A stretch of DNA of 41,550 nucleotides, from assembly GCA_044225505.1 (NCBI GenBank), contig JBGAIN010000061.1, positions 1 through 41,550 of the forward strand. Direction: 5' to 3'. Of this stretch, positions 6,098-27,896 are shown piece after piece. The notes under the pieces are model-generated. The model had not been told where the DNA came from. It saw nothing but the letters and a program-made list of their open reading frames with translations, and did no database searches. Both the position numbers and the translations under genes were made by a program. Position 1 is the first letter of the stretch, and each line of letters starts with the position of its first letter. This stretch comes from Limisphaerales bacterium (GTDB lineage: Bacteria; Verrucomicrobiota; Verrucomicrobiia; Limisphaerales; SIBE01).

Positions 6098-7045
6098 TCA
6101 GGGAACGGCTCCGGACCAGAGCCACAACCATAGCCTGCCCCCACTCGCCAGAATGACCGCTCCCATCACCGCAATAGCGCCGCCGACCAGCGAACGGAGA
6201 CTTGGCCGTTCTCCTTCAATCCAGCGGGCAAACGGGATAACGATGATCGGGGTCGTGGCCACAATGGGCAGAACCACCCCGGTCGGATGCGTGGCCAGGG
6301 CCCATTGATAGCACCCGACTCCGAGAGTGGGCCCGGCCAAAACGTTCAGAACGATCCAGGGGATGGCAGATTGCCATCGCGCGCGCGGGGAGGAAGGCCG
6401 GCCTGTCAGTATATTCGGTGTCCGCTCGGACCGGCGTGCGATCGCGTAGGAAACGGCCGCCAAGCCCCACCCCGCGAGGATGCGTTGATATGCCGCAGAA
6501 AGGCCATCGATCGGCTCGCTGGCCGCCGAGGCCACGGCGTAGGCTTTGCGGCTGAGAACCGCCCCAGACCCTTGCCCAACGGCCGCCAAAACGCCAAAGA
6601 GAATACCGATCAACAAGGTTCGCCGCGGCACGGCCAAATGCTGGCTCGGGGCCAGCGCCAAGGAGACGCCGAACAAAACAGTTACGCTTGCCGAGATCTG
6701 CAGCGGCGACAAGGAGGTGCCTAACCAGGACCACTCGACCAGGGCGGCAAACGGCGCCGCCAGACAATGCACCAGCAGAATCGAAAGTCGCGAACCCAGT
6801 CGCGGCAAGGTCTGATAAAGCGCCAAGTCTCCGAGGCCAAACCCCAAACCTCCGCTGATGAGGAACCAAGGGAAAGCATTTCCGCCCCACCCAGCTCCGA
6901 CACTATGCGACCAAGTTGCCAAGAGCACCGTTGCCAGACTGATTCTATAAAAGTTCGCCGTCACACCCCCGAGCATCCGTGCTGTCTGATTGGCAGAGAC
7001 AGCCGATAGCGCGAACAGAAAAGTGGCGAGAAACGCCGGCAACAT
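6098..7045 (-). CDS. DMT/EamA family transporter
   Basis: About 10 hydrophobic helices in two repeats; SGGLGFGLGD and GERPS motifs. Confidence 0.88.
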   Translation of the reverse strand: MLPAFLATFLFALSAVSANQTARMLGGVTANFYRISLATVLLATWSHSVGAGWGGNAFPWFLISGGLGFGLGDLALYQTLPRLGSRLSILLVHCLAAPFAALVEWSWLGTSLSPLQISASVTVLFGVSLALAPSQHLAVPRRTLLIGILFGVLAAVGQGSGAVLSRKAYAVASAASEPIDGLSAAYQRILAGWGLAAVSYAIARRSERTPNILTGRPSSPRARWQSAIPWIVLNVLAGPTLGVGCYQWALATHPTGVVLPIVATTPIIVIPFARWIEGERPSLRSLVGGAIAVMGAVILASGGRLWLWLWSGAVP

Positions 7046-7169
7046 CGGCCGTCAGTGTGCACGAGGTCCGACCATTGTCACGCGGAGATGGGCACCAATA
7101 TTTCCGACTGTGCAAAACGGAGATGCCTTGGCAGAATCCCGGTATCCAGTTCTTTGGGAAAGGTTTTCT

Positions 7170-9497
7170 ATGTCACGATTATTGATGCTGCACTTGTTCG
7201 GTATCTGCCTCTTCCTGGCTTCCCTGATTCCAGCCCAAGCGGCTGACACCCTCGCCTGGCCCTCGGTGCGAGAGGTAGAATGGCAACCGCTCGCCGCGAG
7301 CCTTCGACGTGTTGTCCAAGCGATGGACCAGCTTGGGTCACCTCTTCGTCCGGCCGACCAAAAAAAGCTGGCCGCCGCGCTGGAGAATCCCGACTCATCC
7401 GAGACTGTCGCGCAGGTCCAGGCGATCCTGGATCCTTACTGCTTGTTCGGAGTTCAGGTGAATCCGGAGTCCCGCGTCAAAGTCGTGGCTGGGGCAGCAC
7501 GCCCTGAGCTCCTCGAGCAGGGCTGGCGAGTCTTCCTCGTCAAGGTCCAGAACGACGCGGGCGTCACGGCGGAACTCCAGGCAATCAGTCCCAATGCCCA
7601 GGCGCTCTACGATGGCGGTGCCGGAGGCGCGCTGTCTGACAAATTCTTTCGAAAGAAGAAAGGAGCAGCCGCCCCGGACCCCCGCGAGCTCTGGCTGGAT
7701 ATGGCCATGTGGCGGTCCCAGCCGCTGCGGAAAGAACTGAGCGGTTTGAAACTGGAATATCGCCTGATCCAATTTTACAGCCGCGACCCGGGAAAACGCG
7801 AAGCCAAAGTCCTTTTCGATGTGGGCCAAGGCACGCAAGATCTCGGATTCCGCAACGAGGTCGACATTCTGTTCGATTGCATTCCGGCGCGTGAGATCAC
7901 CCTCAAAGTGCGGGATGAGAACAACCAACCCACGACAGCAGCCTTTGTTTTCCGCGACCCGCAAGGCCGAGTTTACCCTTCCCAAGCCAAGCGCTTGGCG
8001 CCGGACTTTGGGTTTCATCCTCAAATTTACCGCGCCGATGGCGAGACGCTACGTCTCCCGGACGGCACGTACACCGTTGAGTTTTCTCGGGGCCCGGAGT
8101 CTGTCACGCACAACCGGCAGATTGCTGTGAAGGCGGATCAAACGCGGTTCGAGTTCAAGGCGGAGCGTTGGATTGACCCTTCGAAATTTGGCTGGTGGTC
8201 TGGAGATCACCATATCCATGCCGCGGGCTGCGCGCATTACACGCGGCCGACCGAGGGAGTGCACGCCCTGGATATGATGCGCCACTGTCTGGGGGAAGAC
8301 TTAAAGATCGGCTGTAACTTGACTTGGGGGCCCTGTTTCGACTACCAAAAGCAATTCTTCACCGGCAAGGACGACAAGGTTTCTCAACACCCCTACTTGC
8401 TTCATTACGACGTTGAGGTTTCTGGATTCGGATCCCATCAATCGGGACATTTATGTTTGTTGCGTTTGCGTGACCAAATCTATCCGGGTGGCGATTCAGA
8501 TACGCATTGGCCAACGCTCGGCCTGAACACCCTCCGTTGGGCGAAAAAACAAGGCGCGGTGTGCGGCCCAGCGCACAGTGGATGGGGACTAGAGGTTGAG
8601 ACGTCCGAATTGCCGAACTACATCGTGCCTCCCTTTAATGGGATTGGGGCCAACGAATACATCATGGACGTCACCCACGAAGTGCCCGGGCCCGATGGCA
8701 AACTCGTCCCGGCCGTTGATTTTCTATCGACCGTCGACACTCCTTACGTCTGGGAGCTGAACATGTGGTATCAAACGCTAAATGTCGGCTTTCGGACCCG
8801 AATTAGCGGCGAGACAGACTACCCATGCATTTACGGAGAAAAGGTCGGTCTGGGCCGTTCCTATGTGAAACAGCCCGAGCGGCTGAATTATGAGGATTGG
8901 TGCCAGGGAATCCGCGAGGGACGGAATTACGTGGGCGACGGCAAGAGCCATTTGATTGACTTTAAGGCGAACGACGTCGCGCTCGGTCAGAATGGGAGCG
9001 AACTTAAGCTTCCTCACCCAGATCGAGTCCGCCTCACTGTGAAAGCAGCCGCATGGCTATCCGAGAGACCCAACACCGAATTGCAGCGTCGTCCCTACAG
9101 CGAAAAACCCTATTGGGACATCGAACGCGCCCGGGTCGGAAGCAGCCGTTCCGTGGTCGTTGAAGCGATCGTGAACGGATATCCCGTCGCCAAGCAGTCG
9201 CTGCTCGCGGACGGATCCATGCGCGACTTGACGTTTGACGTACGAGTGGAGCGGAGCAGTTGGGTGGCACTGCGCGTCTTGCCCTCCTCCCATACCAATC
9301 CGTTCTTCGTGATGGTGGAAGACAAGCCGATCCGAGCGTCGCGTCGAAGCGCGGAATGGTGTCTTAAGGGGGTGGAGCAATGCCGTTCTCAAAAGGAACG
9401 CTTCATCAAAGCGGACGAAATAAGGCAGTTCAAACAGGACTACGCCCATGCCCGGGAGGTTTATGAACGGCTAATTAAAGAGTGCGATACGGAATAA
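7170..9497 (+). CDS. Secreted CehA/McbA-like PHP-fold metallohydrolase
   Basis: Start moved to ATG 7170, which gives a signal peptide (MSRLLMLHLFG..AQA) and removes the overlap with the EamA gene. Motifs WSGDHHIH, AHSGWG, SGETDYP, GRSYV, SSHTNP. Confidence 0.82.
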   Translation: MSRLLMLHLFGICLFLASLIPAQAADTLAWPSVREVEWQPLAASLRRVVQAMDQLGSPLRPADQKKLAAALENPDSSETVAQVQAILDPYCLFGVQVNPESRVKVVAGAARPELLEQGWRVFLVKVQNDAGVTAELQAISPNAQALYDGGAGGALSDKFFRKKKGAAAPDPRELWLDMAMWRSQPLRKELSGLKLEYRLIQFYSRDPGKREAKVLFDVGQGTQDLGFRNEVDILFDCIPAREITLKVRDENNQPTTAAFVFRDPQGRVYPSQAKRLAPDFGFHPQIYRADGETLRLPDGTYTVEFSRGPESVTHNRQIAVKADQTRFEFKAERWIDPSKFGWWSGDHHIHAAGCAHYTRPTEGVHALDMMRHCLGEDLKIGCNLTWGPCFDYQKQFFTGKDDKVSQHPYLLHYDVEVSGFGSHQSGHLCLLRLRDQIYPGGDSDTHWPTLGLNTLRWAKKQGAVCGPAHSGWGLEVETSELPNYIVPPFNGIGANEYIMDVTHEVPGPDGKLVPAVDFLSTVDTPYVWELNMWYQTLNVGFRTRISGETDYPCIYGEKVGLGRSYVKQPERLNYEDWCQGIREGRNYVGDGKSHLIDFKANDVALGQNGSELKLPHPDRVRLTVKAAAWLSERPNTELQRRPYSEKPYWDIERARVGSSRSVVVEAIVNGYPVAKQSLLADGSMRDLTFDVRVERSSWVALRVLPSSHTNPFFVMVEDKPIRASRRSAEWCLKGVEQCRSQKERFIKADEIRQFKQDYAHAREVYERLIKECDTE

Positions 9498-9662: not shown

Positions 9663-10061
9663 CTAATCGTTTTCCGAGTCCTGGCTATTGAAGAACGTAA
9701 GCATTTGGCGTCGTTGACGTTTCGTGGGGCGCCCGATTCCCGGGGGCAGTCTCCGCTGGCGTGCCGCCTCTTCATGGGCCCGCGCATATTCTTCGGCGGG
9801 CGTCTGGTCTTCGAGAAATTGCGGGATCGATTTCGGCCCGACTCGCCGGTCCAACAACCCGATTACCCGGACTGTCCGATGCACATTTCCCGACAGTGCT
9901 TGGATGACATCACCGATTCGGACTTCGCGTGAAGCCTTGACACTGTGGCCATCGATCTTAACGTGACCTGCGTTGCAGGCCAATGTGGCTAGGGATCGGC
10001 TCTTGAAGAGACGTGCCGCCCAGAGCCACTTGTCAATACGCACTCGGTCAACACCTTGCAT
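9663..10061 (-). CDS. hslR: Ribosome-associated heat shock protein Hsp15 (S4 RNA-binding domain)
   Basis: RIDKWLWAARLFKSRSLA..AC.AGHVKIDG..KASREV and C-terminal GRPTKRQRR. Confidence 0.92.
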   Translation of the reverse strand: MQGVDRVRIDKWLWAARLFKSRSLATLACNAGHVKIDGHSVKASREVRIGDVIQALSGNVHRTVRVIGLLDRRVGPKSIPQFLEDQTPAEEYARAHEEAARQRRLPPGIGRPTKRQRRQMLTFFNSQDSEND

Positions 10062-10152
10062 TCTCAAGAAGGTAGATTCGTTGCGGGAACATGCAATGCG
10101 AGAGTCGCTTTGCCTTTCCTAACGAATGATGCTTTGCTTGAGGGACGTTTTC

Positions 10153-12822
10153 ATGACAGACAGATTGCCAATTTACGAAGTTGAAGATCAGATTATCGCT
10201 CGGCTGCAGGAAAATCGCCGCCTAATACTGCAGGCGCCCAATGGTTCGGGCAAATCGAGCCAGGTGCCACAGATGCTCCTTAATCGGGGATTGGTGAAGG
10301 ACGGCCAAGTCCTCGTTCTCGAACCGCGCCGGTTGCCCGCTCGGCTTCTGGCCGCACGGGTTGCGAAAGAGCGGAATGTCGAAGTGGGAGCGGAGGTTGG
10401 ATATGAGATTCCGTTTGAGTCGGTCGCTGGAGCTGCCACGCGCATCAAATATATTACCGGCGGGCTCCTGCTCCAACAGCTGCTGCAGGATCCCCAACTG
10501 CAAGGGGTGCAAGCGCTGGTTTTCGATGATTTTCAAGAGCGACATCTTGACAGCGACCTAACGCTCAGCCGCGCCCTGGAGGCGCAGGAGAAAAGCCGGC
10601 CGGACCTGCTGATCATCGTGATGTCGGCCACCCCTTCCGACGGCGCGCTAGAAACCTTCATGCAGCCATGCTCGGTTTTAGTGTCGGAAAGCCGGACCTT
10701 TCCCGTTGAAACGGATTACGTTCCGCACAAGAAGAAAGAGAAGGACAAGGAGAAAGAAGAGTCGGAAGAGCCAGTTTGGGAAATGGCCGCCGAAGCCTTC
10801 AAGAAGCATGTGCAGGGCAAAAATGCGGGTGATGTGCTCGTATTTATGCCGGGCCGGTATGAGATTGAGCAAACGATTGAGGCCATTCGAGCTCTCCCCG
10901 AAGCCCAAGGATTTCTGCTCCTGCCATTGCATTGCGAGCTGTCGCCCCAAGACCAGGAGGCAGCGGTTGCGCGTTATGATCAGCCGAAGGTGGTCGTTTC
11001 GACCAACGTCGCGGAGACATCCCTGACGATCGATGGAGTCCGCTTGGTTATCGACAGTGGCTTAGCTCGAATCCCGAAATACGATGCCAGCACTGGCATC
11101 AACACGCGCCTCGTCGAAAAGATCAGCCGCGCTTCCGCGGATCAAAGGTCAGGCCGGGCTGGCCGGACTGCGGCAGGACGTGTCGTTCGACTATGGTCAT
11201 CTCAAGACCATTGGGAACGCCCCGAACATACCGATCCCGAAGTGAAGCGCCTCGATCTTTCGGAGGTTGCCCTTACCTTGAAGTCCGCTGGCATCGAGGA
11301 TTTGCGAACGTTTCGGTGGTTGGAAGCGCCGACGGAAGAAGCCCTAGAGCGCTCTGAACAGTTGCTCATTGATCTGGGAGCACTGGAAGCGATTGAACCC
11401 GCCGCGGCTTCCGAAACACCCGTGCCCGCACCTGCAGGCACGCCCGCTGAAGGCACAACCACAGCTCCGGCCGCCACCTCAGCCGATAAACCGCGCCCAG
11501 TGAAGGGGCGCTTGACCGACCTGGGGAGACGAATGGCCGCTTTCCCGGTCCATCCTCGCTACTCGCGAATGTTTCTTGCGGCACAGGGATATGATTGCAC
11601 CTACCACGCCTGTCTGGTTGCCGCGTTGACTCAAGGCAGGGAACTCCTGATGCGCAGTCCAGGGAAAGCAATTCTTACGCTGCGCGAGGAATTATTGGGG
11701 CACAAAGGCAGTTCGGATTTTTGGATTGCCATGCGCGCATGGGATTACGCTCGGGACAATGAATACCGTGTCGACGTGTGTCGAAAGGTCGGCATCCACG
11801 CCGTTACGGCACGGCAGGTGGGCCCGCTGTTCGAAGAGTTTCAGAAAGTCGCGCGCAGTCAAGGACTGCACGTGGACCAAAAATCACCTGCCCCAGATAC
11901 TTTGGAGAAATGCATTCTGATCGCATTTCCAGACCGAGTTGCCCGGCGTCTGGATGAAGGCACGCTTCGGTGCGAAATGGTGGGTGCACGTCGCGGGAAT
12001 CTGGCACGCGAGAGTGTCGTCCACCATAGCACCTTGCTTGTGGCATCGGAAGTTCGCGAGGTGGAAGGGGCTGATAAAACCCTAGCCACCATCTTGTCGT
12101 GGGCCACAGCGACAACGCTTGACTGGCTCCGTGAGTTTTTTCCAAGAGCGGTGCGAACAGAGTCACGAGTCTTTTTCGATAGTGCAGCTCGGCGCGTGTC
12201 GGCCGATGAGCAGGTTCGATTTCGCGACCTCGTGGTGACCACCCGCCGCAACGATCCAGCTCCCGCAGACGAAGCCACGCGCATTTTAGCAACCGAAGTC
12301 TCGCAGAAACGGCTGACTCTGCGCAACTGGGATGCGAGCGTGGAAGAATGGATATTGCGCCTCAACTTGCTGAGTCGGTGGAGCCCAGATCTCGGGCTGA
12401 CGCCGTTGGCAGAAGACGATCGTTACCAGCTCATTGAGCAGATTTGCCAAGGGGGCTATTCCTATAAGGATATCAAAGATCGCGAAGTCAAGCTGGTCGT
12501 CCAGTCCTGGCTATCCAAAGCGCAGCAAGAGCTGCTTGAGAAACACGCTCCAGAACGATTCGCGTTTTCCAACGGCAAGTCCGCAAAGATTCACTATTTG
12601 AAAGAAGGCCAGCCCTACATTGAAGTCCGCATTCAGGATCTGTACGGCGTCAAGACGACGCCGAAAATTGCCTCGGGCAAGGTGACGTTGCAGGTGCACA
12701 TCTTAGCCCCCAATATGCGTCCGATCCAGGTCACTCAAGATCTCGTCAGCTTCTGGCGCGAGCATTACCCGAAAGCGAAGAAAGAGCTGCAACGGAAATA
12801 TCCGAAGCACGAATGGCGCTAA
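10153..12822 (+). CDS. hrpB: HrpB-family DEAH helicase-like protein with degenerate motif II (DDFQ)
   Basis: LPI start, GSGKS, PRRL, MSAT, FMPG, TNVAETSLTIDGV, QRSGRAGR, HA2 (PVHPR), and HrpB C-terminal domain (APNMRPIQVTQDL.SFW..YP..KKELQRKYPKHEW). ATG 10153 is preceded by GAGGGA. Confidence 0.92.
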   Translation: MTDRLPIYEVEDQIIARLQENRRLILQAPNGSGKSSQVPQMLLNRGLVKDGQVLVLEPRRLPARLLAARVAKERNVEVGAEVGYEIPFESVAGAATRIKYITGGLLLQQLLQDPQLQGVQALVFDDFQERHLDSDLTLSRALEAQEKSRPDLLIIVMSATPSDGALETFMQPCSVLVSESRTFPVETDYVPHKKKEKDKEKEESEEPVWEMAAEAFKKHVQGKNAGDVLVFMPGRYEIEQTIEAIRALPEAQGFLLLPLHCELSPQDQEAAVARYDQPKVVVSTNVAETSLTIDGVRLVIDSGLARIPKYDASTGINTRLVEKISRASADQRSGRAGRTAAGRVVRLWSSQDHWERPEHTDPEVKRLDLSEVALTLKSAGIEDLRTFRWLEAPTEEALERSEQLLIDLGALEAIEPAAASETPVPAPAGTPAEGTTTAPAATSADKPRPVKGRLTDLGRRMAAFPVHPRYSRMFLAAQGYDCTYHACLVAALTQGRELLMRSPGKAILTLREELLGHKGSSDFWIAMRAWDYARDNEYRVDVCRKVGIHAVTARQVGPLFEEFQKVARSQGLHVDQKSPAPDTLEKCILIAFPDRVARRLDEGTLRCEMVGARRGNLARESVVHHSTLLVASEVREVEGADKTLATILSWATATTLDWLREFFPRAVRTESRVFFDSAARRVSADEQVRFRDLVVTTRRNDPAPADEATRILATEVSQKRLTLRNWDASVEEWILRLNLLSRWSPDLGLTPLAEDDRYQLIEQICQGGYSYKDIKDREVKLVVQSWLSKAQQELLEKHAPERFAFSNGKSAKIHYLKEGQPYIEVRIQDLYGVKTTPKIASGKVTLQVHILAPNMRPIQVTQDLVSFWREHYPKAKKELQRKYPKHEWR

Positions 12823-12887
12823 CGGCGCGACTCGTCCGCGGGAGAGGAGACTGAAAGGTGAATGGCGTGGGGCCAGATCGGGCCACG

Positions 12888-13544
12888 CTAGGCTTCGCGC
12901 CATTGAATCGCATGTTGAACGAGTTCCGTGGCGTTCTTCAAGTTCAGCTTCTCCTTGATGTGAGCTCGGTGTGACTCGATTGTCTTAATACTAAGGTGCA
13001 ACTCCTCGGCAATCTGGCGCGTCCCGTGGCCTTGGCCAATCAAATTGAACACTTCTAATTCGCGGTCGCTCAGATCTTCGAGCGGTGACCCGGTGCGGGC
13101 TGCTCGACCACCGACCAACTGGTGCATCATCTTTTTCTCCATCCGCTCGCTGAGGTAAATCTCACCGTTTAACACTTGTCGGATCGCGGTAAGGACTTTC
13201 TCAGTCGCTTCCTGTTTCATGACGTATCCAGCGGCGCCGGCCCTGAGCGCGCGCACTGCGTAAAGCGACTCGTCGTGCATGGAGAGCATCAGAACAGATT
13301 GGCGTGGAAATCGGACTTTGATATTCTTCAATAGCTCGATGCCATTGCTCCCTTTCAGGGAGATATCCACAATCACAATGTCGGGCGAAAGAGCCGCGAT
13401 CTGATCCAACGCTTGATGCACGTCGTCCGCCATCCCACAGACCGAGAGATCCTTCTCATGATCGATCAGCTCCGCCAATCCCTGGCGCACGACCGGGTGA
13501 TCATCGACCAGCAACACAGTGTTCTTAAGCTTTTTCGCTGACAT
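12888..13544 (-). CDS. NarL/FixJ family response regulator (REC + LuxR HTH)
   Basis: LVDDHPVVRQG, DISL, LSMH, GYVMK, LSDRELEVF..IAEELHLSIKTIESHR. Confidence 0.95.
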   Translation of the reverse strand: MSAKKLKNTVLLVDDHPVVRQGLAELIDHEKDLSVCGMADDVHQALDQIAALSPDIVIVDISLKGSNGIELLKNIKVRFPRQSVLMLSMHDESLYAVRALRAGAAGYVMKQEATEKVLTAIRQVLNGEIYLSERMEKKMMHQLVGGRAARTGSPLEDLSDRELEVFNLIGQGHGTRQIAEELHLSIKTIESHRAHIKEKLNLKNATELVQHAIQWREA

Positions 13545-13680
13545 AGTTTGGTGTGAAATAATAGGTGAATGACCTGCGCGCACGAAACCGCTCGCGCAAG
13601 GCATCACGGAATTTGCACGAAAAACGCAACCGCAATTTTAATCGCGAGTGGCTAGGCTGAGCCGCGCGATGCGGCACATC

Positions 13681-17931: not shown

Positions 17932-20713
17932 TTACGCCAAAACCAGGTGTGGGTAGGCCTTTTCCGGATTCACACCCAAATCACGCATGGCGCGATCGAC
18001 CTGCTCTTTCGCGACGGCGCCCTTTTGCGATAGCGCATACAACGTTGCCACGACCGTCAGTTCCGCGTCCACTTCGAAGAATCGGCGCAGGTTGGCCCGA
18101 GTGTCACTGCGTCCAAAACCGTCGGTCCCCAACGTCGTCAGGCCTCCCGGAACCCAAGGCGCAATCTGATCCGGAACAATTTTCATGTAATCCGAGACGG
18201 CCACGAATACCCCTTCTTCCTTCTCCAAGATCTCTTGGACAAAGGGTTTTCTAGGCTGCGCTGTTGGATGCAGCATGTTCCATCGACTCACACCCAAGGC
18301 GTCATTCCGCAGCAGCTTATAGCTCGTGGCGCTCCACACGTCGGCCGACACGTTATAGCGCTCTGCCAAAATCTCCTGCGCCCTTAACGCCTCCTTCAAA
18401 ATCGGTCCGCTACCCAGAATATGGGCTTTATGCCCCTTGCCCGCAGGACCCGGCTTAAATTTATAAAGGCCTTTCAATATTCCCGATTCCACACCCGGTG
18501 GCATCGGCGGCATGGGATAGTTCTCATTGTAGAGCGTCAAATAATAGAAGACGTCCTCGCCCTCACGATACATGCGCCGAAACCCATCGGCGATGATCAC
18601 CGCGATCTCGTAGCCGAACGCCGGGTCGTAGGTAATTAACGATGGGATGGTGCTCGCCAGAATATGACTATGCCCATCTTGGTGCTGCAACCCCTCTCCG
18701 TTCAAGGTTGTCCGTCCAGCGGTGGCACCGAGGAGAAAGCCCTTCGCTTTAATATCGCCAGCCAACCACATGAGATCCCCAATCCGCTGGAACCCAAACA
18801 TGGAATAGTAAATGTAAAACGGAATCATATGCGTTCCGTAATTCGCATACGCCGTTCCGGCCGCGATAAAAGACGACATCGCCCCTGCTTCGGTGATGCC
18901 CTCCTCCAAGATCTGGCCATCCTTCGCTTCGTGGTAGTAAAGCAACGAAGACTTGTCGACGGGCTCATAGAGCTGTCCTTTGGAAGAGTAAATTCCAATC
19001 TCACGGAAGAGCGCATCCATGCCAAACGTCCGTGCCTCGTCAGGAATGATCGGCACGATGCGACGCCCGATTTCTTTGTTTCGCAAGAGAATCGTGAGCA
19101 GACGCACAAATACCATTGTCGTCGAGAATTCGAAGCGTCCAGACCCCTTGGCGAATTCTGCAAAATCTTCGATCTTCGGCTCTTGAATCGGCTTTGCGAC
19201 AACCCGCCGCTCGGGCACAAACCCGCCCAGAGCCCGGCGTCGCTCCACCAGGTATTTTGCTTCACTGCTATCCGCAGGAGGACGATAAAATGGCGTTTCT
19301 GCGATTTCCTCATCTTTAATCGGAACGCCAAATCGCGACCGAAATTCCCGAAGCTCTTTTTCGTTTAGCTTCTTCTGTTGGTGAGTGATATTCCTTCCTT
19401 CGCCCGCTTCACCCAGGCCGTAACCCTTGACCGTTTTGGCTAGAATGACAGTCGGCTGGCCTTTGTGTTCCGAAGCCGCCTTATATGCCGCGTAGACCTT
19501 GGCAGCATCATGCCCACCGCGCATCATCTTGTGCAGTTGGTCGTCGGTAAGATGATTCACCAACTCGAGCAACGGCGGATACTTGCCAAAGAAATTCCGG
19601 CGCACGTAACTCCCAGGTTCCACCGAGTACTTTTGATACTCGCCGTCAACAGCCTCCTCCATTCGCTTCCGGAGAAGCCCGGTATGATCCGCAGCCAGTA
19701 ATGCGTCCCAGTCCGATCCCCAAATTACCTTGATCACATTCCAACCGGCGCCTCGGAATAGTGCCTCGAGCTCCTGAATGATCTTACCATTCCCGCGCAC
19801 GGGACCGTCCAACCGCTGCAAATTGCAGTTCACTACCCAAATCAAATTGTCTAAACTTTCGCGCGACGCGAGGGTGATCGAACCCAGCGATTCCGGCTCG
19901 TCCGTCTCCCCGTCCCCCAGAAAACACCAGATTTTAGGCTCCTCGCCTTTCACAAAATCCCTGGCGCGCAAGTAACGGCAGAATCGAGCTTGGTAAATCG
20001 ACATGATTGGCCCGAGTCCCATGGAGACCGTGGGGAACTGCCAAAAATCCGGCATTAGATAGGGGTGCGGATACGATGATAGCCCGCCCCCTTCCGACAA
20101 TTCCAAGCGAAAGCGTTCTAACTGCTGAGCCTCGATTCGGCCTTCCAAGAACGCTCGGGAATAATTCCCGGTTGTGGCGTGTCCCTGAAAGTAAATCAGG
20201 TCGGCTGGATGTCCGCCTTGGCCTCCGCGGAAGAAGTGGTTGAAACCGACCTCATACAAGGTCGCGCTCGAGGCAAACGTGGAGATATGGCCACCAATGC
20301 CGTTGTTCTTGCGGTTGGCGTTAACGACCATGGCCATCGCATTCCAGCGAATGAGACTCTTGATGCGCCGCTCGATTTCGCGGTCGCCTGGGTAGTCCGG
20401 CTNNNNNNNNNNNNNNNNNNNNNNNNNNNNNNNNNNNNNNNNNNNNNNNNNNNNNNNNNNNNNNNNNNACATACGGTGTGCTCACAACAGGTGGCACCCC
20501 GACCCCGCCCGCTCTGAGTCGCTGCACTACGTTGTCTAGAAACGAAGAGGCTCGACCTGCGCCCTCCCGCCGCAAAAGGTGTTCTAAAACAGATTCCAAC
20601 GATTCGATCCAGTGCGGCCCGTCTCCCTGATCGGTTTTCGACACTGCGTCCACTCCAGATCGGGTCCGCCCCTTTCGCGACGTGATCGGTTCTCTATCAT
20701 GCTCAGATCTCAT
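17932..20713 (-). CDS. aceE: Pyruvate dehydrogenase E1, homodimeric type, interrupted by an assembly gap
   Basis: The N-terminal part (WIESLESVL..STPY, ORF 20321..20713) and the main body (PDYPGD, GGHISTFAS, GDGETDE, NLQRLDGPV, PDEARTFG, GEGLQHQDG) lie on either side of an N run. Confidence 0.95.
20403..20468. other. Assembly gap (66 N)
   Basis: N run inside aceE. Its length is incompatible with the reading frame: the flanks need a gap of 2 mod 3. Confidence 0.99.
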
Positions 20714-23123: not shown

Positions 23124-24380
23124 TCAACTCGCGCAGAACCGTTCAAATTCGCCGCCAAAAAGCTGCCGCACGTCTCTCCGAATCTCTTCGACCGTGGGCG
23201 ACCATCCGCTCTCTGCTAGATCCGAGTATTTGTCTATCAGCACCTCGGTGATTACGCGCCGAGAATGCCGCCACTTATAGATCAACTGATCTAAGACTCG
23301 CGCGTCCGAGTGTTGTGGAGTGAAGCTCAAGCCCAACAACTCCATTCTCATCCGAGTCATCTCTTCGACAATCGATGGCACGTTGGTAAACCACCAGCAG
23401 CCAAAAACGTGCAAGTTGCGGAACTTCCTGGCGAGAACGCAGAGTTCATGTTGATTCTCGCGCGCCAAAACTGTGACCAGGAATTTATTGTTTGGATATT
23501 CGGCACAAAGCACTCGGAGAGCGCTCAAGTCCGTCAACCCCTCGCCATCACCAGCTAAACGCAAGGCCGGGTTTACGGCCCGCCGAACTCCCGGCATCAG
23601 GGCAAAAGGAAGCCCAAATTCCCGGCAGTGTGGCAGGACCACTTTGGCCATCAATTGAGGGGCCAGGTCCTTCCCGGGAAACGTAAAATCGGGTGGGAGC
23701 GAGACCATGACATACTTGGCTTGCATGCGCCTCGTCCAATCCTCCAAAAACCGTCGAGCTCCCGTAACACTGGACTCGGAAAGCGTCGGGCCGGTCCGAT
23801 ATCCCCAAGCGCGCAACCGACGAGTTGTGTTCGGCCAATCCAGCAAGAGGGGATCAATGCGCAAGCCACTTGTAAAACGCTCGTCACGAGTCCACTCTCG
23901 CTCCCAGACTGGCCGTTCCAGATCGTCCAATGGCGAATTGGTCATGCAGATCTGCCGGACCCCGCCCAACTCCATGCAACGCGTGACGTAATCCTCCACG
24001 CGCCATTTCTGAAACCATTTGCGAAGCGACGGCAAGTCCCGCTTCCGCGCGTCCAGTCCGAGCGACTGCAAGGTTGTGACCACACCTCGGCAAGCTTCCG
24101 AGAGGGGTGAGTGTTGGACAAAGAGTGCCTCCCAAATCAGGTCGGCTTGCTGTGTCTTGGATAGGGACCAAAACTTGTCGTAGGGAATTTCGAAGTAGCG
24201 AAACCCTTCTGCGACCAAGTAATGATAGACGAGCAGATCGTCAATTCCCCAAAGCAGCAACGGGCCAAACGCCGGATCGTAAAGATGGGTATGGATATCG
24301 TAAACAGAGGTCTCCTGGACAACTCGCGTCACGGTCTGCGCAAGGTCTATCGATTTCGAGGCATGCCTGGGGGATTTCAT
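23124..24380 (-). CDS. uxaC: Uronate (glucuronate) isomerase, amidohydrolase fold
   Basis: DIHTHL, LWGIDDLLVYHYL, MTN, GCWWF, QHSDARVLDQLIYKW; ATG 24380. Confidence 0.9.
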   Translation of the reverse strand: MKSPRHASKSIDLAQTVTRVVQETSVYDIHTHLYDPAFGPLLLWGIDDLLVYHYLVAEGFRYFEIPYDKFWSLSKTQQADLIWEALFVQHSPLSEACRGVVTTLQSLGLDARKRDLPSLRKWFQKWRVEDYVTRCMELGGVRQICMTNSPLDDLERPVWEREWTRDERFTSGLRIDPLLLDWPNTTRRLRAWGYRTGPTLSESSVTGARRFLEDWTRRMQAKYVMVSLPPDFTFPGKDLAPQLMAKVVLPHCREFGLPFALMPGVRRAVNPALRLAGDGEGLTDLSALRVLCAEYPNNKFLVTVLARENQHELCVLARKFRNLHVFGCWWFTNVPSIVEEMTRMRMELLGLSFTPQHSDARVLDQLIYKWRHSRRVITEVLIDKYSDLAESGWSPTVEEIRRDVRQLFGGEFERFCAS

Positions 24381-24464
24381 AAGACTCAGCAATGGTTTAA
24401 CGCGGATCGTGAACGAGGGTAGTGAGCCTCTGGTTACAACCGAGGTCAAGGCAAACTGTCGCCG

Positions 24465-25502: not shown

Positions 25503-25655
25503 GGGTGAACACCGACTTATCTACCAGAGCCCGGCAGGATCGTGAACAAAATTGGCAGAATATTCCTAGTTCCATCGACCAGAGCGCGCTCTGCCGCTGG
25601 GAGGGTCCGGAGTTTGCGCTTTGTCCAAAGACGGTTTTGCCCAATACTCCGTCCG

Positions 25656-26909
25656 GTGAAGTCCATTGAATGGCTCACGCTGGCGGCTTTGGCCGCCTGT
25701 GCCGCGGCCAGTTTCTTTTTTGCACTGGCCGAATCGGCGCTTTTCTCCCTAGGCCGATGGCGGGCACAGCAGTTGTCGGAAGAGAACAATGTGCGTGGCG
25801 AGGAAATCCGCCAGTTACTGCAGGAGCCGCAAGATCTTTTAGCGACGATCGTCCTGGGGAGCACCTTTGCCCATGCGGGAATCGTGGCCACGGGCCTATG
25901 GCTCGGAATCGGGGGCCAGTGGCCCATGATCGCCGCGGTCGCTGGCGCGCTATTGATTCTGCTCGTTTTGGGAGAGGTTGTCCCAAAGACATTGGCGGCC
26001 CGATATCCGGAACGCTGGGCCCTTCGATTGGTCCGGCCGATTGCAGCGATTCAGCGCCGCACGCGCCCCTTGCGGCAGATTGCCCAGCGGGCGAACAACT
26101 TCATCCTCCACGCCATCACACCCAGCACCTGGAAGACACAGAGCGCGTTGACCGACGAAGAGTACCAGGAACTTCTCGAAATGGCTTATCAACAAGGCAG
26201 TTTAGGCCGAGGCCAGCGGGACCTAATCCTCCAGATCATCCGCCTGGACCGCCGCACAGCCAAGGATGTTATGAAGCCACGAGCTCGCATGGCGTCCATT
26301 CCTGATGATTTGCCATTGGAAGATATGGTTTCAGCCGCGCGAAAACACCAACACCGCCGTCTGCCAATGTATGACGAATCGCCCGACACGATCGTCGGCA
26401 TTTTGAACACTCGCGCCTTACTGCTAGATCCGCAAACGGATCTGGTCGAAGCAATCGAATTCCCTTCGTTCGTCCCGGAATCGATGAACCTTCTCCAACT
26501 CTTCCGGAGCCTCCAGCGGCAGAGGCGTGGCCTCGCGATCGTCATGGACGAATATGGAGGCACTGCCGGGCTCGTCACCACGGAGGACATCCTTGAAGAA
26601 GTCGTCGGCGACCTCCGCGGAGAGGGCGAACCGGAAGGCTTTACCCTCGAGAAGTTGGGAGACGGTCGCTGGCGAGCGAACGGAACGCTTCGGCTTGAAG
26701 ATTTTCGACGCGAGTATGCGGATTTGGGCGACACTCCTGGAGTGGACACCCTGGGCGGGTTGCTCGTCACTCTCCTGGGCGTCGTTCCGGTGCAAGGGGA
26801 ATCCGTCGTCCACCGAGGCTTGCGCCTGACCGCATCCGTCGTGGACGATCGGCGAGTCCGCGAAGTGTATGCAGAGATGGTGAAAAAGAAATCGGGAGGT
26901 CCTGGGTGA
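25656..26909 (+). CDS. CNNM/CorB (hemolysin-family) CBS-pair protein with CorC_HlyC domain, paralog 1
   Basis: FFALAESALFSL, GEVVPK, VMKPR, RLPMY, MDEYGGTAGLVTTEDILEEVVG, DTLGG; GTG at 25656 chosen as start. Confidence 0.92.
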   Translation: MKSIEWLTLAALAACAAASFFFALAESALFSLGRWRAQQLSEENNVRGEEIRQLLQEPQDLLATIVLGSTFAHAGIVATGLWLGIGGQWPMIAAVAGALLILLVLGEVVPKTLAARYPERWALRLVRPIAAIQRRTRPLRQIAQRANNFILHAITPSTWKTQSALTDEEYQELLEMAYQQGSLGRGQRDLILQIIRLDRRTAKDVMKPRARMASIPDDLPLEDMVSAARKHQHRRLPMYDESPDTIVGILNTRALLLDPQTDLVEAIEFPSFVPESMNLLQLFRSLQRQRRGLAIVMDEYGGTAGLVTTEDILEEVVGDLRGEGEPEGFTLEKLGDGRWRANGTLRLEDFRREYADLGDTPGVDTLGGLLVTLLGVVPVQGESVVHRGLRLTASVVDDRRVREVYAEMVKKKSGGPG

Positions 26910-27895
26910 TTTCCACCGCGTTATCAGGCTTCGTCCTTTTCCTTTGTTGTTTGCTCTGTTTCGCCTTGTCCGGAATGGAAGCTGGGGTTCTGGCGCTTAG
27001 CCGCTTCCGCATTCGACGGCAAATGCGTGCCGGCGTTCGCCGGGCTGTGCTTCTACACAACTATCTAGAGAATCCGGAAGACTTCCTTTGGACGATTCTG
27101 GTTGGCAACACCCTGGCGACGTTTGCTGCTTTCAGCCTGATGGTGGTCTGGCTCCACAACGCCGTGGGCGGCCAGGTCTGGCTCTTTGTCATCGTTTTTA
27201 TTCCGATCGTCTTCCTGTTTTATGTCTTCTGCGATCTCCTGCCGAAGATGCTCTTCCGACAGTTTCCCAATCGATTGTGCCTGGCCCTGGCAGTTCCGTT
27301 TCGGCTCTTGCATGTCCTGGTCTCTCCCGGCGTCGCGATCCTCAATTGGTTTTCCGATATCGTGCTGCGGCTGACTGGGCGAGAACGCTTTCGGGGTCGG
27401 ATCTTTAATACTCCCCGCGAAGTGCGTCTCGCCTTGCAGGACTCCGCCCAAATCCTGTCCACCGAAGAGCGCACCATGGTCAACCGCGTCCTCGACTTGC
27501 AGGAACTGACGGTCCAGTCCATTACGGTGCCACTACAGCGGGTGATCGGGGTTTCGGAACTAACGCCCGTCCGTGATCTCCTTGAAATCGGCCGGCAACA
27601 CCCCGTCAGTCGCTTGCCCGTTTGGAGTGGCGCCGGAACGAACCGGCGCATCGTCGGCGTCGTTCGCCTGAGCGCCTTTCTTTACGCGGAATCTGTCGAT
27701 CTGGATTCCCCGGTAGGACGTTTTGCGCATGCCCCACTGCAACTTCGGGAAGACATTCGCTTGGAAGAAGCGCTGCGGCGCATGCAACGCAGTCGTCAGC
27801 GTATGGCCGTCGTTATCGGATTCAACGGTCGCGAAATCGGTATCGTCAACCTGCGGGATATCCTGAAATCGATTTTCGGCGAAGTCACTCTCTAG
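26906..27895 (+). CDS. CNNM/CBS-pair protein, paralog 2 (no C-terminal CorC domain)
   Basis: SGMEAG, ILVGN, DLLPK, SRLPV, GIVNLRDIL; GTGA overlap with the upstream gene. Confidence 0.9.
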   Translation: MISTALSGFVLFLCCLLCFALSGMEAGVLALSRFRIRRQMRAGVRRAVLLHNYLENPEDFLWTILVGNTLATFAAFSLMVVWLHNAVGGQVWLFVIVFIPIVFLFYVFCDLLPKMLFRQFPNRLCLALAVPFRLLHVLVSPGVAILNWFSDIVLRLTGRERFRGRIFNTPREVRLALQDSAQILSTEERTMVNRVLDLQELTVQSITVPLQRVIGVSELTPVRDLLEIGRQHPVSRLPVWSGAGTNRRIVGVVRLSAFLYAESVDLDSPVGRFAHAPLQLREDIRLEEALRRMQRSRQRMAVVIGFNGREIGIVNLRDILKSIFGEVTL

Positions 27896-27896
27896 C

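What the first reader, a model, noticed from the sequence alone, without database searches (positions are those of the whole stretch)
10153..12822. Full-length HrpB with a dismantled ATPase/RNA-binding RecA1 domain: candidate pseudo-helicase
Seen: motif II reads DDFQ (GAT GAT TTT CAA, 10525-10536) where HrpB has DEFH, so both the catalytic Walker-B Glu and the His are replaced. Other RecA1 motifs also deviate: PRRLPAR (usually PRRLAAR), GYEIPFE (GYxxRF), ITGGLLLQQ (TEGxLxR), SATP (SATL); in RecA2, LHCEL (LHGxL). Walker A GSGKS, motif V (TNVAETSLTI), motif VI (QRSGRAGR), HA2 and the HrpB C-terminal domain are intact, and the ~890-codon ORF has no stop or frameshift. Established: the motif II Glu activates the hydrolytic water in SF2 helicases. 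Inference: the clustered substitutions point to a retained, NTP-binding but hydrolysis-impaired paralog acting as a scaffold, clamp or regulator, not random decay.
Basis: partly seen in the sequence, partly recalled or inferred. Interest (0 to 1): 0.72.

Follow-up and report, generated by a model that had tools for sequence, protein, structure and literature searches.

The report
Degenerate HrpB helicase beside intact paralog
One uncultivated sludge bacterium still keeps and apparently transcribes its usual HrpB RNA helicase gene, but the ATP-burning half has lost its conserved residues while a second, normal HrpB gene sits elsewhere in the genome.

Summary
Window 10153-12822 (+) is an 889-codon HrpB gene with DDFQ at 10525-10536 and the other listed deviations. 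A contig from a study not flagged as a possible source matches 10303-12900 without a difference, so it is not an error.

It is the positional ortholog of the clade's HrpB. All 119 close homologs, 134 diverse representatives and both same-genus genomes are canonical. The acceleration is gene-specific: AceE and HrpA from the same genome evolve at normal rates. It is strongest in RecA1 (3.3x). There, lineage-specific changes hit invariant and variable columns equally (19/88 vs 7/32), the signature of lifted constraint rather than targeted remodelling. The other domains are also relaxed, but less.

The genome also carries a second HrpB subfamily copy (37% identical, all motifs canonical). Across 31 related genomes the two subfamilies almost exclude each other (26 of 28 carriers have one).

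Best reading: the second copy released the resident one, which lost catalysis. It stays open (neutral simulation: P of no stop about 0.005-0.02) and matches metatranscriptome contigs. Whether it is a selected pseudo-helicase or a slowly dying relic is unresolved. A second degenerate full-length HrpB exists in the same genus clade.

The parts
10153..12822 (+). hrpB-1: 889-codon ORF plus stop (protein P0001), the positional ortholog of the clade's HrpB
   Evidence: Homologs start at MTDRLPI. Flanking synteny with G001 and G002.
10140..10145 (+). Shine-Dalgarno-like GAGGGA upstream of the ATG at 10153
   Evidence: Read directly from the sequence. Function is inferred.
10234..10260 (+). Motif I: APNGSGKSS where 117 of 119 close homologs read APTGSGKST. 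The GSGKS core is kept, with T30N and T36S.
10318..10353 (+). Motif Ia: LEPRRLPARLLA, with A62P (A in 129/134 diverse representatives) and Q57E
10396..10422 (+). Motif Ib: VGYEIPFES, with R87P (R in 133/134 diverse representatives) and Q85E
10453..10482 (+). Motif Ic: ITGGLLLQQL, with E103G and R108Q (R in 126/134)
10522..10545 (+). Motif II: FDDFQERH, with E126D and H128Q (E and H each in 134/134). The DDFQ codons lie at 10525-10536.
10621..10635 (+). Motif III: MSATP. SAT is kept, with L161P.
10732..10749 (+). Lineage-specific in-frame 6-residue K/E-rich insertion (KKEKDK). Coordinates are approximate.
   Evidence: read laying flagged repeats at 10725-10760.
10924..10944 (+). RecA2 segment PLHCELS, with G261C (G in 121/134)
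11002..11037 (+). Motif V: TNVAETSLTIDG, canonical
11143..11166 (+). Motif VI: QRSGRAGR, with the arginines intact
12436..12816 (+). HrpB_C domain (PF08482, residues 762-888, E 6e-39)
9663..10067 (-). S4-domain gene, divergent from hrpB. It holds the same position in G001 and G002 and serves as a synteny anchor.
12888..13607 (-). LuxR-type response regulator, convergent with hrpB. It is 91-92% identical and in the same position in G001 and G002 (synteny anchor). No gene is co-transcribed downstream of hrpB.

Best explanation
The window gene is the resident HrpB (here called HrpB-1) of this Verrucomicrobial lineage. In this one species it has lost selective constraint on the helicase core, completely in RecA1 and partly elsewhere.

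The losses cover the motif II Glu and His (E126D, H128Q), the conserved arginines of motifs Ib and Ic (R87P, R108Q), and A62P, E103G and L161P. The protein should therefore no longer couple NTP hydrolysis to RNA translocation. That conclusion is inferred from general SF2/DEAH knowledge and has not been assayed.

The likely cause is redundancy. The same genome carries a member of a second HrpB subfamily (HrpB-2, 37% identical) with every motif canonical. In related genomes the two subfamilies behave as alternatives.

HrpB-1 is nevertheless still an open 889-codon frame with a start signal. It matches metatranscriptome contigs, and its non-RecA1 domains change less than RecA1. It is therefore most likely still made as a full-length, catalytically degenerate protein under weak residual selection. 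That would make it a pseudo-helicase in the broad sense, released by a paralog. What it is kept for, if anything, is not shown.
For: Orthology. TIGR01970 scores above its cut-off. The S4-domain gene and the response regulator flank hrpB in both same-genus genomes. aceE lies on the same contig as hrpB in G002.

Uniqueness. Of 119 close homologs, 118 read DEFH and 1 DEYH. All 134 diverse representatives have E126 and H128. The G001 and G002 orthologs are canonical.

Loss of conservation. P0001 deviates at 35 of 306 columns conserved at 97% or more. The median across the 120 sequences is 2.

Gene-specific acceleration (Tajima counts). HrpB shows 111 vs 66, 111 vs 49, 124 vs 58 and 109 vs 48 (p 9e-4 to 1e-6). 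AceE shows 51 vs 43 and 51 vs 47. HrpA shows 42 vs 31 and 30 vs 40 (all four controls not significant). AceE has 2 of 404 violations and ranks 55 of 120.

Domain pattern. The path from the clade ancestor in RecA1 is 0.739 against a sibling mean of 0.222 (3.3x). Other domains run at 1.4-1.8x. In RecA1, changes hit invariant, intermediate and variable columns at 19/88, 5/23 and 2/9. Invariant columns in RecA1 vs elsewhere are hit at 19/88 vs 19/223, p=0.003.

Paralog. P0394 (907 aa) is 100%, 99.3% and 99.7% identical to the three pieces on C13 and C316. All its motifs are canonical. It has 6 of 318 violations.

Distribution over 31 genomes. 12 have HrpB-1 only, 14 have HrpB-2 only, 2 have both and 3 have neither.

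Maintenance of the frame. The neutral simulation gives P(no stop) of 0.19 for RecA1, 0.089 for the rest and 0.005 for the whole gene at the observed 11.4%. There are no frameshifts and only in-frame lineage-specific indels: one of 6 residues plus two single-residue events in the variable linker. Four RNA-library contigs are 100% identical to parts of the gene.
Against: The other four domains are also relaxed. Invariant columns are hit at 7-12%, against 0.3-2.3% in 13 pooled siblings. Outside RecA1, discrimination between invariant and other columns is only marginal (OR 0.55, p=0.06). This also fits a gene on its way out.

In this assembly the HrpB-2 copy carries a frameshifting deletion of about 115 nt that removes motifs Ib and Ic, and it is split over two contig ends. 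Redundancy in this exact genome is therefore not secure.

G017 has both subfamilies, and both are canonical. Coexistence alone therefore does not force decay.

RNA contigs do not prove transcription, because DNA can be present in RNA libraries.

No biochemical data exist. dN/dS is not measurable.
Confidence: 0.5

Rival explanations
1. Relic in decay. The gene has no remaining function. It lost HrpB activity either because HrpB-2 took over or because HrpB is dispensable here. It simply has not yet been hit by a stop, a frameshift or a deletion.
For: Changes are spread flat across conservation classes in RecA1, and also in RecA2 (6/78 vs 3/33) and the CTD (4/57 vs 6/88). All domains are accelerated. 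Three substitutions to proline fall at conserved sites, and there is a low-complexity insertion. The near mutual exclusivity of the two subfamilies implies that one copy is normally lost. hrpB deletions give no phenotype in E. coli or P. aeruginosa (PMC7237152, passages read). The HrpB-2 allele in this assembly is itself frameshifted.
Against: An open 889-codon frame is improbable after this much change. P(no stop) is about 0.005 to 0.02 from substitutions alone, and no frameshift is present. The change rate differs 3-fold between domains, which uniform neutrality does not predict (p=0.003). The start signal is intact and the gene matches RNA-library contigs. P0093 shows that a far more degenerate copy (57 of 306 columns) can stay open over 905 codons in this clade.
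Confidence: 0.3
2. Adaptively retooled pseudo-helicase, which is the first reader's reading in its strong form. Selection drove the loss of hydrolysis and RNA translocation to create an NTP-binding clamp, scaffold or regulator.
For: The GSGKS core and motifs V and VI are intact. E126D keeps a carboxylate. P0001 and P0093 share 12 violated invariant columns where 7.1 are expected (p=0.029). Among these, G134S, S593P and H611G are identical replacements found in no other clade member checked. In P0093, radical changes spare hydrophobic invariants outside RecA1 (16/94 polar vs 5/96 hydrophobic, p=0.011).
Against: Within RecA1 the changes are not focused on catalytic residues. They are spread evenly. 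In P0001 the polar versus hydrophobic contrast is not significant (p=0.41-0.44). The DDFQ state is confined to one lineage, so no conservation of the new state can be shown. P0093 lost different residues: it keeps motifs I and II but lost SAT and the R338 arginine finger.
Confidence: 0.12
3. Still an active RNA-dependent NTPase that tolerates unusual motifs.
For: The family score is above its cut-off. Asp can in principle replace Glu. Motifs I (core), V and VI are intact.
Against: E126 and H128 are invariant in 134 of 134 diverse representatives, and all 119 close homologs read DEFH or DEYH. R87 is R in 133 of 134. There are six hits at 33 core positions, against at most 2 in any of the 134 diverse representatives and 0 in 118 of the 120 close-set sequences. 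The loss of all conservation signal in RecA1 argues that the activity is no longer under selection.
Confidence: 0.07
4. Sequencing, assembly or binning artefact.
For: The genome is a 342-contig assembly with 4.7% estimated contamination.
Against: Contigs from three further studies are identical, one of them spanning 10303-12900. The exact protein is on 4 contigs. Synteny and GC3 are typical of the window. The substitutions are of many types and include no frameshift.
Confidence: 0.01

Closest known systems
HrpB of E. coli (PDB 6EUD, 6HEG) and P. aeruginosa
   Same: Same family and architecture: RecA1, RecA2, WH, HA2/ratchet, OB and the HrpB C-terminal domain. The protein aligns end to end with 6EUD at E 9e-97 and scores above the TIGR01970 cut-off.
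   Different: The characterised proteins read DEFH, GYxxR, TEGxLxR and SATL. PaHrpB is an RNA-dependent NTPase that is killed by K33A (PMC7237152, passages read). The window protein has lost those residues in RecA1. It also carries a P/A/T-rich linker of about 40 residues and a K/E-rich insertion.
HrpB-2 of the same genome (contigs C13 and C316; intact form P0394)
   Same: An HrpB-family protein of similar length with the same Pfam domains.
   Different: It is only 37% identical, and every helicase motif is canonical. It belongs to a subfamily that replaces HrpB-1 in 14 of the 31 related genomes.
P0093, a second degenerate HrpB-1 in the same genus-level clade
   Same: A full-length open frame (905 aa) with degenerate helicase motifs. 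Its terminal branch is 0.45 against 0.18 for its sister.
   Different: The lesions differ: Ia RR to QP, R87H, G104E, R108T, SAT to APV, N285E, T292G, G334A and R338G, with motifs I and II intact. The tree places it with the canonical G002 ortholog, not with P0001.
Deinococcus radiodurans PriA and yeast Utp25 (described pseudohelicases)
   Same: Helicase homologs retained with degenerate helicase motifs. I saw only titles and abstract starts in the search listing.
   Different: They belong to different helicase families. As I recall, the degenerate state there is a fixed trait of the lineage or family. Here it is confined to single species-level lineages and no function has been shown.
Inactive C-terminal helicase cassette of Brr2 (recalled from memory, no call)
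   Same: An SF2 helicase module with degenerate motifs that serves a non-catalytic role.
   Different: It is eukaryotic, part of a tandem-cassette protein and deeply conserved. The comparison is by analogy only.

Membership tests
HrpB (TIGR01970 equivalog) | Whole-protein score above the curated cut-off | tested here: met
   572.4 bits against a cut-off of 546.15. NF008662 scores 489 against 1053, which is not met. The N-terminal half scores 374 bits, against 405-426 in six family HrpB-1 orthologs (G001, G002, G003, G006, G008, G010).
HrpB (TIGR01970 equivalog) | Domain architecture: two RecA domains, WH/HA2, OB and HrpB_C | tested here: met
   Pfam finds DEAD, Helicase_C, HA2_N and HrpB_C. 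HA2_C is below its cut-off. The protein aligns with 6EUD over residues 4-418 and 587-888.
HrpB (TIGR01970 equivalog) | Orthologous position in the genome | tested here: met
   The S4-domain gene and the response regulator flank hrpB in G001 and G002.
Catalytically competent DExH/DEAH helicase | Motif II reads D-E-x-H | tested here: not met
   It reads DDFQ. E and H are each present in 134/134 diverse representatives, and all 119 close homologs read DEFH or DEYH.
Catalytically competent DExH/DEAH helicase | Conserved arginines of motifs Ib and Ic, and the Ia segment | tested here: not met
   R87P (R in 133/134), R108Q (R in 126/134) and A62P (A in 129/134). Their role as RNA contacts is recalled, not tested.
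Catalytically competent DExH/DEAH helicase | Motif I GxGKS/T and motifs V and VI | tested here: met
   GSGKS, TNVAETSLTIDG and QRSGRAGR are present. T30N and T36S are atypical.
Catalytically competent DExH/DEAH helicase | RNA-stimulated NTPase or unwinding activity | not testable with these tools
   This needs purified protein.
Pseudoenzyme (pseudo-helicase) | Catalytic residues lost in an otherwise recognisable, full-length homolog | tested here: met
Pseudoenzyme (pseudo-helicase) | The degenerate form is maintained by purifying selection (conserved across a clade, or dN/dS below 1) | tested here: inconclusive
   The state is unique to one lineage. dS is saturated, with pS 0.68-0.78. Indirect support comes from P(no stop) of 0.005-0.02 and a lower change rate outside RecA1 (p=0.003). 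Against this, invariant columns are relaxed in every domain.
Pseudoenzyme (pseudo-helicase) | Expressed, with a non-catalytic function | tested here: inconclusive
   Four identical contigs occur in one RNA library. No function was tested.
Pseudogene | Disrupted reading frame | tested here: not met
   No stop and no frameshift in 889 codons.
Pseudogene | Neutral substitution pattern over the whole gene | tested here: inconclusive
   The pattern is flat in RecA1, but the rate is about 3-fold lower in RecA2 and the CTD.

The most novel reading that the evidence does not exclude
In this Verrucomicrobial genus the resident HrpB has been converted twice, independently, into a long-lived NTPase-independent protein. 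This happens once its helicase job is covered elsewhere. The parallel replacements shared by the two lineages (G134S, S593P, H611G) would then mark adaptive retooling of the RNA-binding surface. That would be a recurrent natural route from a DExH helicase to a pseudo-helicase, and a handle on which parts of HrpB act without ATP.
Probability: 0.2. Interest if true: 0.6.

Novelty: new variant of a known kind. Interest (0 to 1): 0.4.

Why it matters
HrpB is widespread, and structures of the E. coli protein have been solved. Its cellular role remains unknown, and deletion mutants of E. coli and P. aeruginosa show no phenotype (PMC7237152, passages read).

This locus is a natural experiment with three parts. 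The resident copy has lost its RecA1 constraints. A canonical copy of a second subfamily is present in the same genome. Across 31 related genomes the two subfamilies substitute for each other.

That gives a testable statement that the two subfamilies are functionally equivalent. It also supplies two natural catalytically degenerate HrpB variants, which could be used to separate ATP-dependent from ATP-independent functions.

The finding is modest. It concerns one uncultivated species, no function is shown, and paralog-driven decay is an ordinary process.

Tried and rejected
Pairwise dN/dS (NG86) against the same-genus orthologs. Synonymous sites are saturated (pS 0.68-0.78, dS from 1.3 to infinite), so omega of about 0.1 says nothing about the terminal branch.

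Ancestral-state reconstruction. The script machine does not offer it, and I did not pursue it by other means. I used relative-rate counts and per-domain branch lengths on a fixed tree instead.

GC3 as a sign of relaxed codon selection. hrpB has 0.616, inside the window's range of 0.59-0.70, so it is uninformative.

Polar versus hydrophobic invariant columns in P0001. The contrast is not significant (p=0.41-0.44 in RecA1, 0.79-1.0 elsewhere).

AU test for a P0001+P0093 clade. The constrained tree is 28.8 lnL units worse but is not rejected (p=0.168). Independence of the two degenerate lineages is therefore favoured, not proven. It is favoured by the ML tree (100/99 and 95/90), by the AceE tree and by quartet site counts (32 vs 14 and 18; 31 vs 11 and 11; 22 vs 12 and 14).

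Exact 46-nt scan of JGI metagenome contigs. This looked for other alleles at the HrpB-2 deletion site and found 0 matches.

Earlier notes of this scan. None fit.

Parts of the gene without cover in runs X10, X11 and X15. I draw no conclusion from them.

Structure prediction, fold search and complex prediction were not run. A model built from a deep alignment would not report on point substitutions, and no binding claim is made.
Full report
**1. The observation**

Window 10153-12822 (+) is an open frame of 889 codons plus a stop. The ORF listing extends it to an ATG at 10126. Homologs begin at MTDRLPI, and the database protein P0001 has 889 residues, so 10153 is the start. A GAGGGA lies at 10140-10145.

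GAT GAT TTT CAA occupies 10525-10536 and reads DDFQ.

The protein scores 572.4 bits on TIGR01970 (HrpB equivalog, cut-off 546.15). Pfam finds DEAD, Helicase_C, HA2 and HrpB_C domains. It aligns end to end with E. coli HrpB (6EUD, E 9e-97).

**2. Is it more than chance?**

- Among 119 close homologs (58-69% identity), motif II is DEFH in 118 and DEYH in 1. The motif Ib arginine, TEG..LLR, SATL and LHGEL are essentially invariant.
- Among 134 full-length representatives of the wider family (34-58% identity), E126 and H128 are each invariant in 134/134. R87 is R in 133/134, A62 is A in 129/134 and R108 is R in 126/134.
- At 33 core motif positions, P0001 carries 6 substitutions. In the close set of 120, 118 carry none. 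The 134 diverse representatives carry at most 2.
- Over all columns conserved at 97% or more, P0001 deviates at 35 of 306. The median across the 120 sequences is 2.

**3. Is it an artefact?**

No. The exact protein is on 4 contigs from NCBI and Logan. Twelve studies hold the stretch or part of it.

I laid four runs from four studies, none flagged as a possible source:
- X6: one 5248-nt contig covers 10303-12900 and another covers 10100-10296. Both show 0 differences and 0 gaps.
- X10 (soil) and X11 (sludge): identical pieces. In X11 one short 39-nt piece at 10596-10634 carries 3 other letters and runs on unlike the stretch, so it is probably from another organism.
- X15 (a metatranscriptome): four identical contigs at 10265-10441, 11687-11947, 11971-12152 and 12444-12609. 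This fits transcription but does not prove it.

**4. Orthology and context**

The neighbours are ordinary chromosome genes: glgC, an S4-domain gene, a LuxR-type response regulator, the pyruvate dehydrogenase genes and lipoate ligase.

In both same-genus genomes (G001, G002), hrpB sits between the same S4-domain gene and the same response regulator. In G002, aceE is on the same contig. The window gene is therefore the positional ortholog. The G001 and G002 orthologs are canonical at every motif, as are G003, G006 and G008; G010 is canonical at every motif the scan matched, but the motif VI pattern was not matched there.

**5. How is it evolving?**

Tree. In an ML tree P0001 falls inside the genus-level clade. 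Its end branch is 0.42-0.44, against about 0.2 to 0.3 for its siblings.

Per-domain branch lengths. On a fixed topology, the path from the clade ancestor is 0.739 in RecA1 against a sibling mean of 0.222 (3.3x). The other domains run at 1.6x (RecA2), 1.76x (WH/HA2), 1.75x (OB) and 1.43x (CTD).

Relative-rate counts (Tajima). The acceleration is specific to this gene.
- HrpB: 111 vs 66, 111 vs 49, 124 vs 58, 109 vs 48 (p from 9e-4 to 1e-6).
- AceE from the same contig: 51 vs 43 and 51 vs 47 (not significant).
- HrpA from the same genome: 42 vs 31 and 30 vs 40 (not significant).
- AceE also has only 2 of 404 conserved-column violations, ranking 55 of 120.

Conservation classes. I defined the classes on sequences outside the clade.
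- In RecA1, P0001's lineage-specific changes hit invariant, intermediate and variable columns equally: 19/88, 5/23 and 2/9. The seven siblings examined hit invariant RecA1 columns 0-2 times in 87-88.
- Outside RecA1 the rate at invariant columns is lower: 19/223 (p=0.003 against RecA1). Invariant columns there are only marginally protected relative to other columns (OR 0.55, p=0.06).
- By domain, invariant columns are hit at 21.6% (RecA1), 7.7% (RecA2), 8.7% (WH/HA2), 11.9% (OB) and 7.0% (CTD). In 13 pooled siblings the range is 0.3-2.3%.

Constraint is therefore gone in RecA1 and clearly weakened everywhere else.

dN/dS is not informative, because synonymous sites are saturated.

**6. Is the open frame surprising?**

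I applied random substitutions (kappa 2) to the canonical G002 gene until the observed fraction of changed residues was reached. This gives:
- P(no stop) = 0.19 for RecA1 at 21.6%.
- P(no stop) = 0.089 for the rest of the gene at 7%.
- P(no stop) = 0.005 for the whole gene at 11.4%.

The product of the first two is about 0.02, and this counts substitutions only. The lineage shows only in-frame indels: one of 6 residues plus two single-residue events in the variable linker. There is no frameshift. No gene lies downstream on the same strand, so polarity cannot explain the open frame. Complete neutrality of the whole gene is therefore unlikely, but not excluded.

**7. The second HrpB**

The family model finds three DEAH-type genes in the genome:
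- a canonical HrpA on C48;
- the window gene;
- a further HrpB-like gene, split between the end of C13 and the start of C316.

All three pieces of the third gene match one database protein, P0394, at 100%, 99.3% and 99.7% identity. P0394 has 907 aa and comes from an independent Logan contig. Every one of its motifs is canonical. It is 37% identical to P0001 and has 6 of 318 conserved-column violations, ranking 7 of 120.

In this assembly the C13 copy lacks P0394 residues 98-135, which hold motifs Ib and Ic, and carries a frame shift. I cannot tell whether that is a real allele or an assembly fault.

**8. Two interchangeable subfamilies**

I classified HrpB hits in 31 related genomes by identity to P0010 (HrpB-1) and P0394 (HrpB-2):

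| Class | Genomes |
|---|---|
| HrpB-1 only | 12 (two of them divergent: G021, G028) |
| HrpB-2 only | 14 |
| Both | 2 (G000 and G017) |
| Neither | 3 (67%, 83% and 91% complete) |

So 26 of the 28 carriers have exactly one type. The type switches even within one genus: in g3, G004 has HrpB-1 while G009 and G012 have HrpB-2. G001 and G002 have no HrpB-2 detected. G002 is 96% complete and G001 is 63% complete.

This is the pattern expected of functionally equivalent alternatives. It offers a cause for the release of HrpB-1 in G000. G017 carries both in canonical form, so coexistence permits decay rather than forcing it.

**9. A second degenerate copy**

P0093 (905 aa) is the only sequence with more violations than P0001: 54, or 57 when both are excluded from the consensus.

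It keeps motifs I and II. It has lost the Ia arginines (RR to QP), R87 (to H), G104 and R108, SAT (to APV), N285 and T292 in motif V, and G334 and R338 in motif VI.

Placement:
- The ML tree puts it beside the canonical G002 ortholog (support 100/99) and puts P0001 with P0002 and P0003 (95/90).
- Quartet site counts agree: 32 vs 14 and 18; 31 vs 11 and 11; 22 vs 12 and 14.
- An AceE tree agrees too, if P0276 comes from the same contig. I inferred that only from equal contig length and source.
- The AU test does not reject a single clade (p=0.168).

The two proteins share 12 violated columns where 7.1 are expected (p=0.029). Three of these are identical replacements seen in no other clade member checked.

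In P0093, radical changes outside RecA1 spare hydrophobic invariants (p=0.011), and a 905-codon open frame after that much change is not credible under neutrality. That lineage therefore looks like true retention, which raises the odds that P0001 is retained as well.

**10. Reading**

Shown:
- orthology;
- uniqueness of the degenerate motifs;
- gene-specific acceleration, strongest in RecA1;
- loss of the conservation signal in RecA1;
- presence of a canonical paralog subfamily, and the near-exclusive distribution of the two subfamilies.

Inferred:
- loss of RNA-coupled NTPase activity. This rests on the general role of the motif II Glu and the Ib/Ic arginines in SF2/DEAH proteins, which I recall rather than tested;
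- redundancy as the cause;
- continued production of the protein.

Open: whether the protein is kept for a non-catalytic job or is a slow relic. I put 0.5 on a paralog-released, catalytically degenerate protein that is still maintained. I put 0.3 on plain decay, 0.12 on adaptive retooling, 0.07 on retained activity and 0.01 on an artefact.

**11. Comparison with what is known**

HrpB of P. aeruginosa is an RNA-dependent NTPase that is killed by K33A. hrpB deletions in E. coli and P. aeruginosa give no phenotype, while X. citri shows motility and biofilm effects (PMC7237152, passages read).

Pseudohelicases are a known kind: D. radiodurans PriA (PMC4504706) and Utp25 (PMC9539457). For those two I saw only the search listing with abstract starts.

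Four full-text searches returned no paper whose listed title or abstract start describes a degenerate HrpB or the two Verrucomicrobial HrpB subfamilies. The search terms were HrpB+DExH+helicase+E. coli; pseudohelicase; HrpB+Verrucomicrobia; and pseudoenzyme+DEAH+helicase+inactive. Subscription-only papers are not covered by those searches.

The finding is a new variant of a known kind and of moderate interest.

Noticed in passing
G000 contigs C13 (L006 1441-3089) and C316 (L005 1-912): A second HrpB-subfamily gene is split over two contig ends. Relative to the intact 907-aa P0394, the C13 copy lacks residues 98-135 (motifs Ib and Ic) and carries a frame shift. It could be a real allele or an assembly fault.
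   Followed up: partly
Protein P0093 (905 aa, ENA; no DNA held): A second, more heavily degenerate full-length HrpB-1 in the same genus-level clade. It deviates at 57 of 306 conserved columns, has lost SAT and the R338 arginine finger, and keeps motifs I and II. The tree places it beside the canonical G002 ortholog.
   Followed up: partly
31 related genomes (G000-G030): Two HrpB subfamilies are almost mutually exclusive: 12 genomes have only HrpB-1, 14 have only HrpB-2, 2 have both and 3 have neither. The type switches within one genus (g3).
   Followed up: partly
window about 10732-10749, and residues 414-452 (about 11392-11508): There is a lineage-specific K/E-rich 6-residue insertion in RecA2. 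A P/A/T-rich linker of about 40 residues lies between WH and HA2. E. coli HrpB lacks this linker, and it is even longer in P0093.
   Followed up: no
window 12888-13607 (-): The LuxR-type response regulator next to hrpB is 91-92% identical to its G001 and G002 counterparts. The flanking S4-domain gene is 56-67% identical and hrpB 66-67%.
   Followed up: no
window 6990-9497 (+) and 23124-24449 (-): Two large ORFs (835 and 441 aa) have no Pfam match at E 1e-5.
   Followed up: no
window 25542-29309 (+): Three consecutive CNNM/CBS(/CorC) transporter-like genes lie in tandem.
   Followed up: no
window, within aceE (17932-20713, -): A run of N interrupts the 5' part of aceE in the window as supplied, so the ORF listing reports a shortened ORF. 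Nothing was interpreted from it.
   Followed up: no
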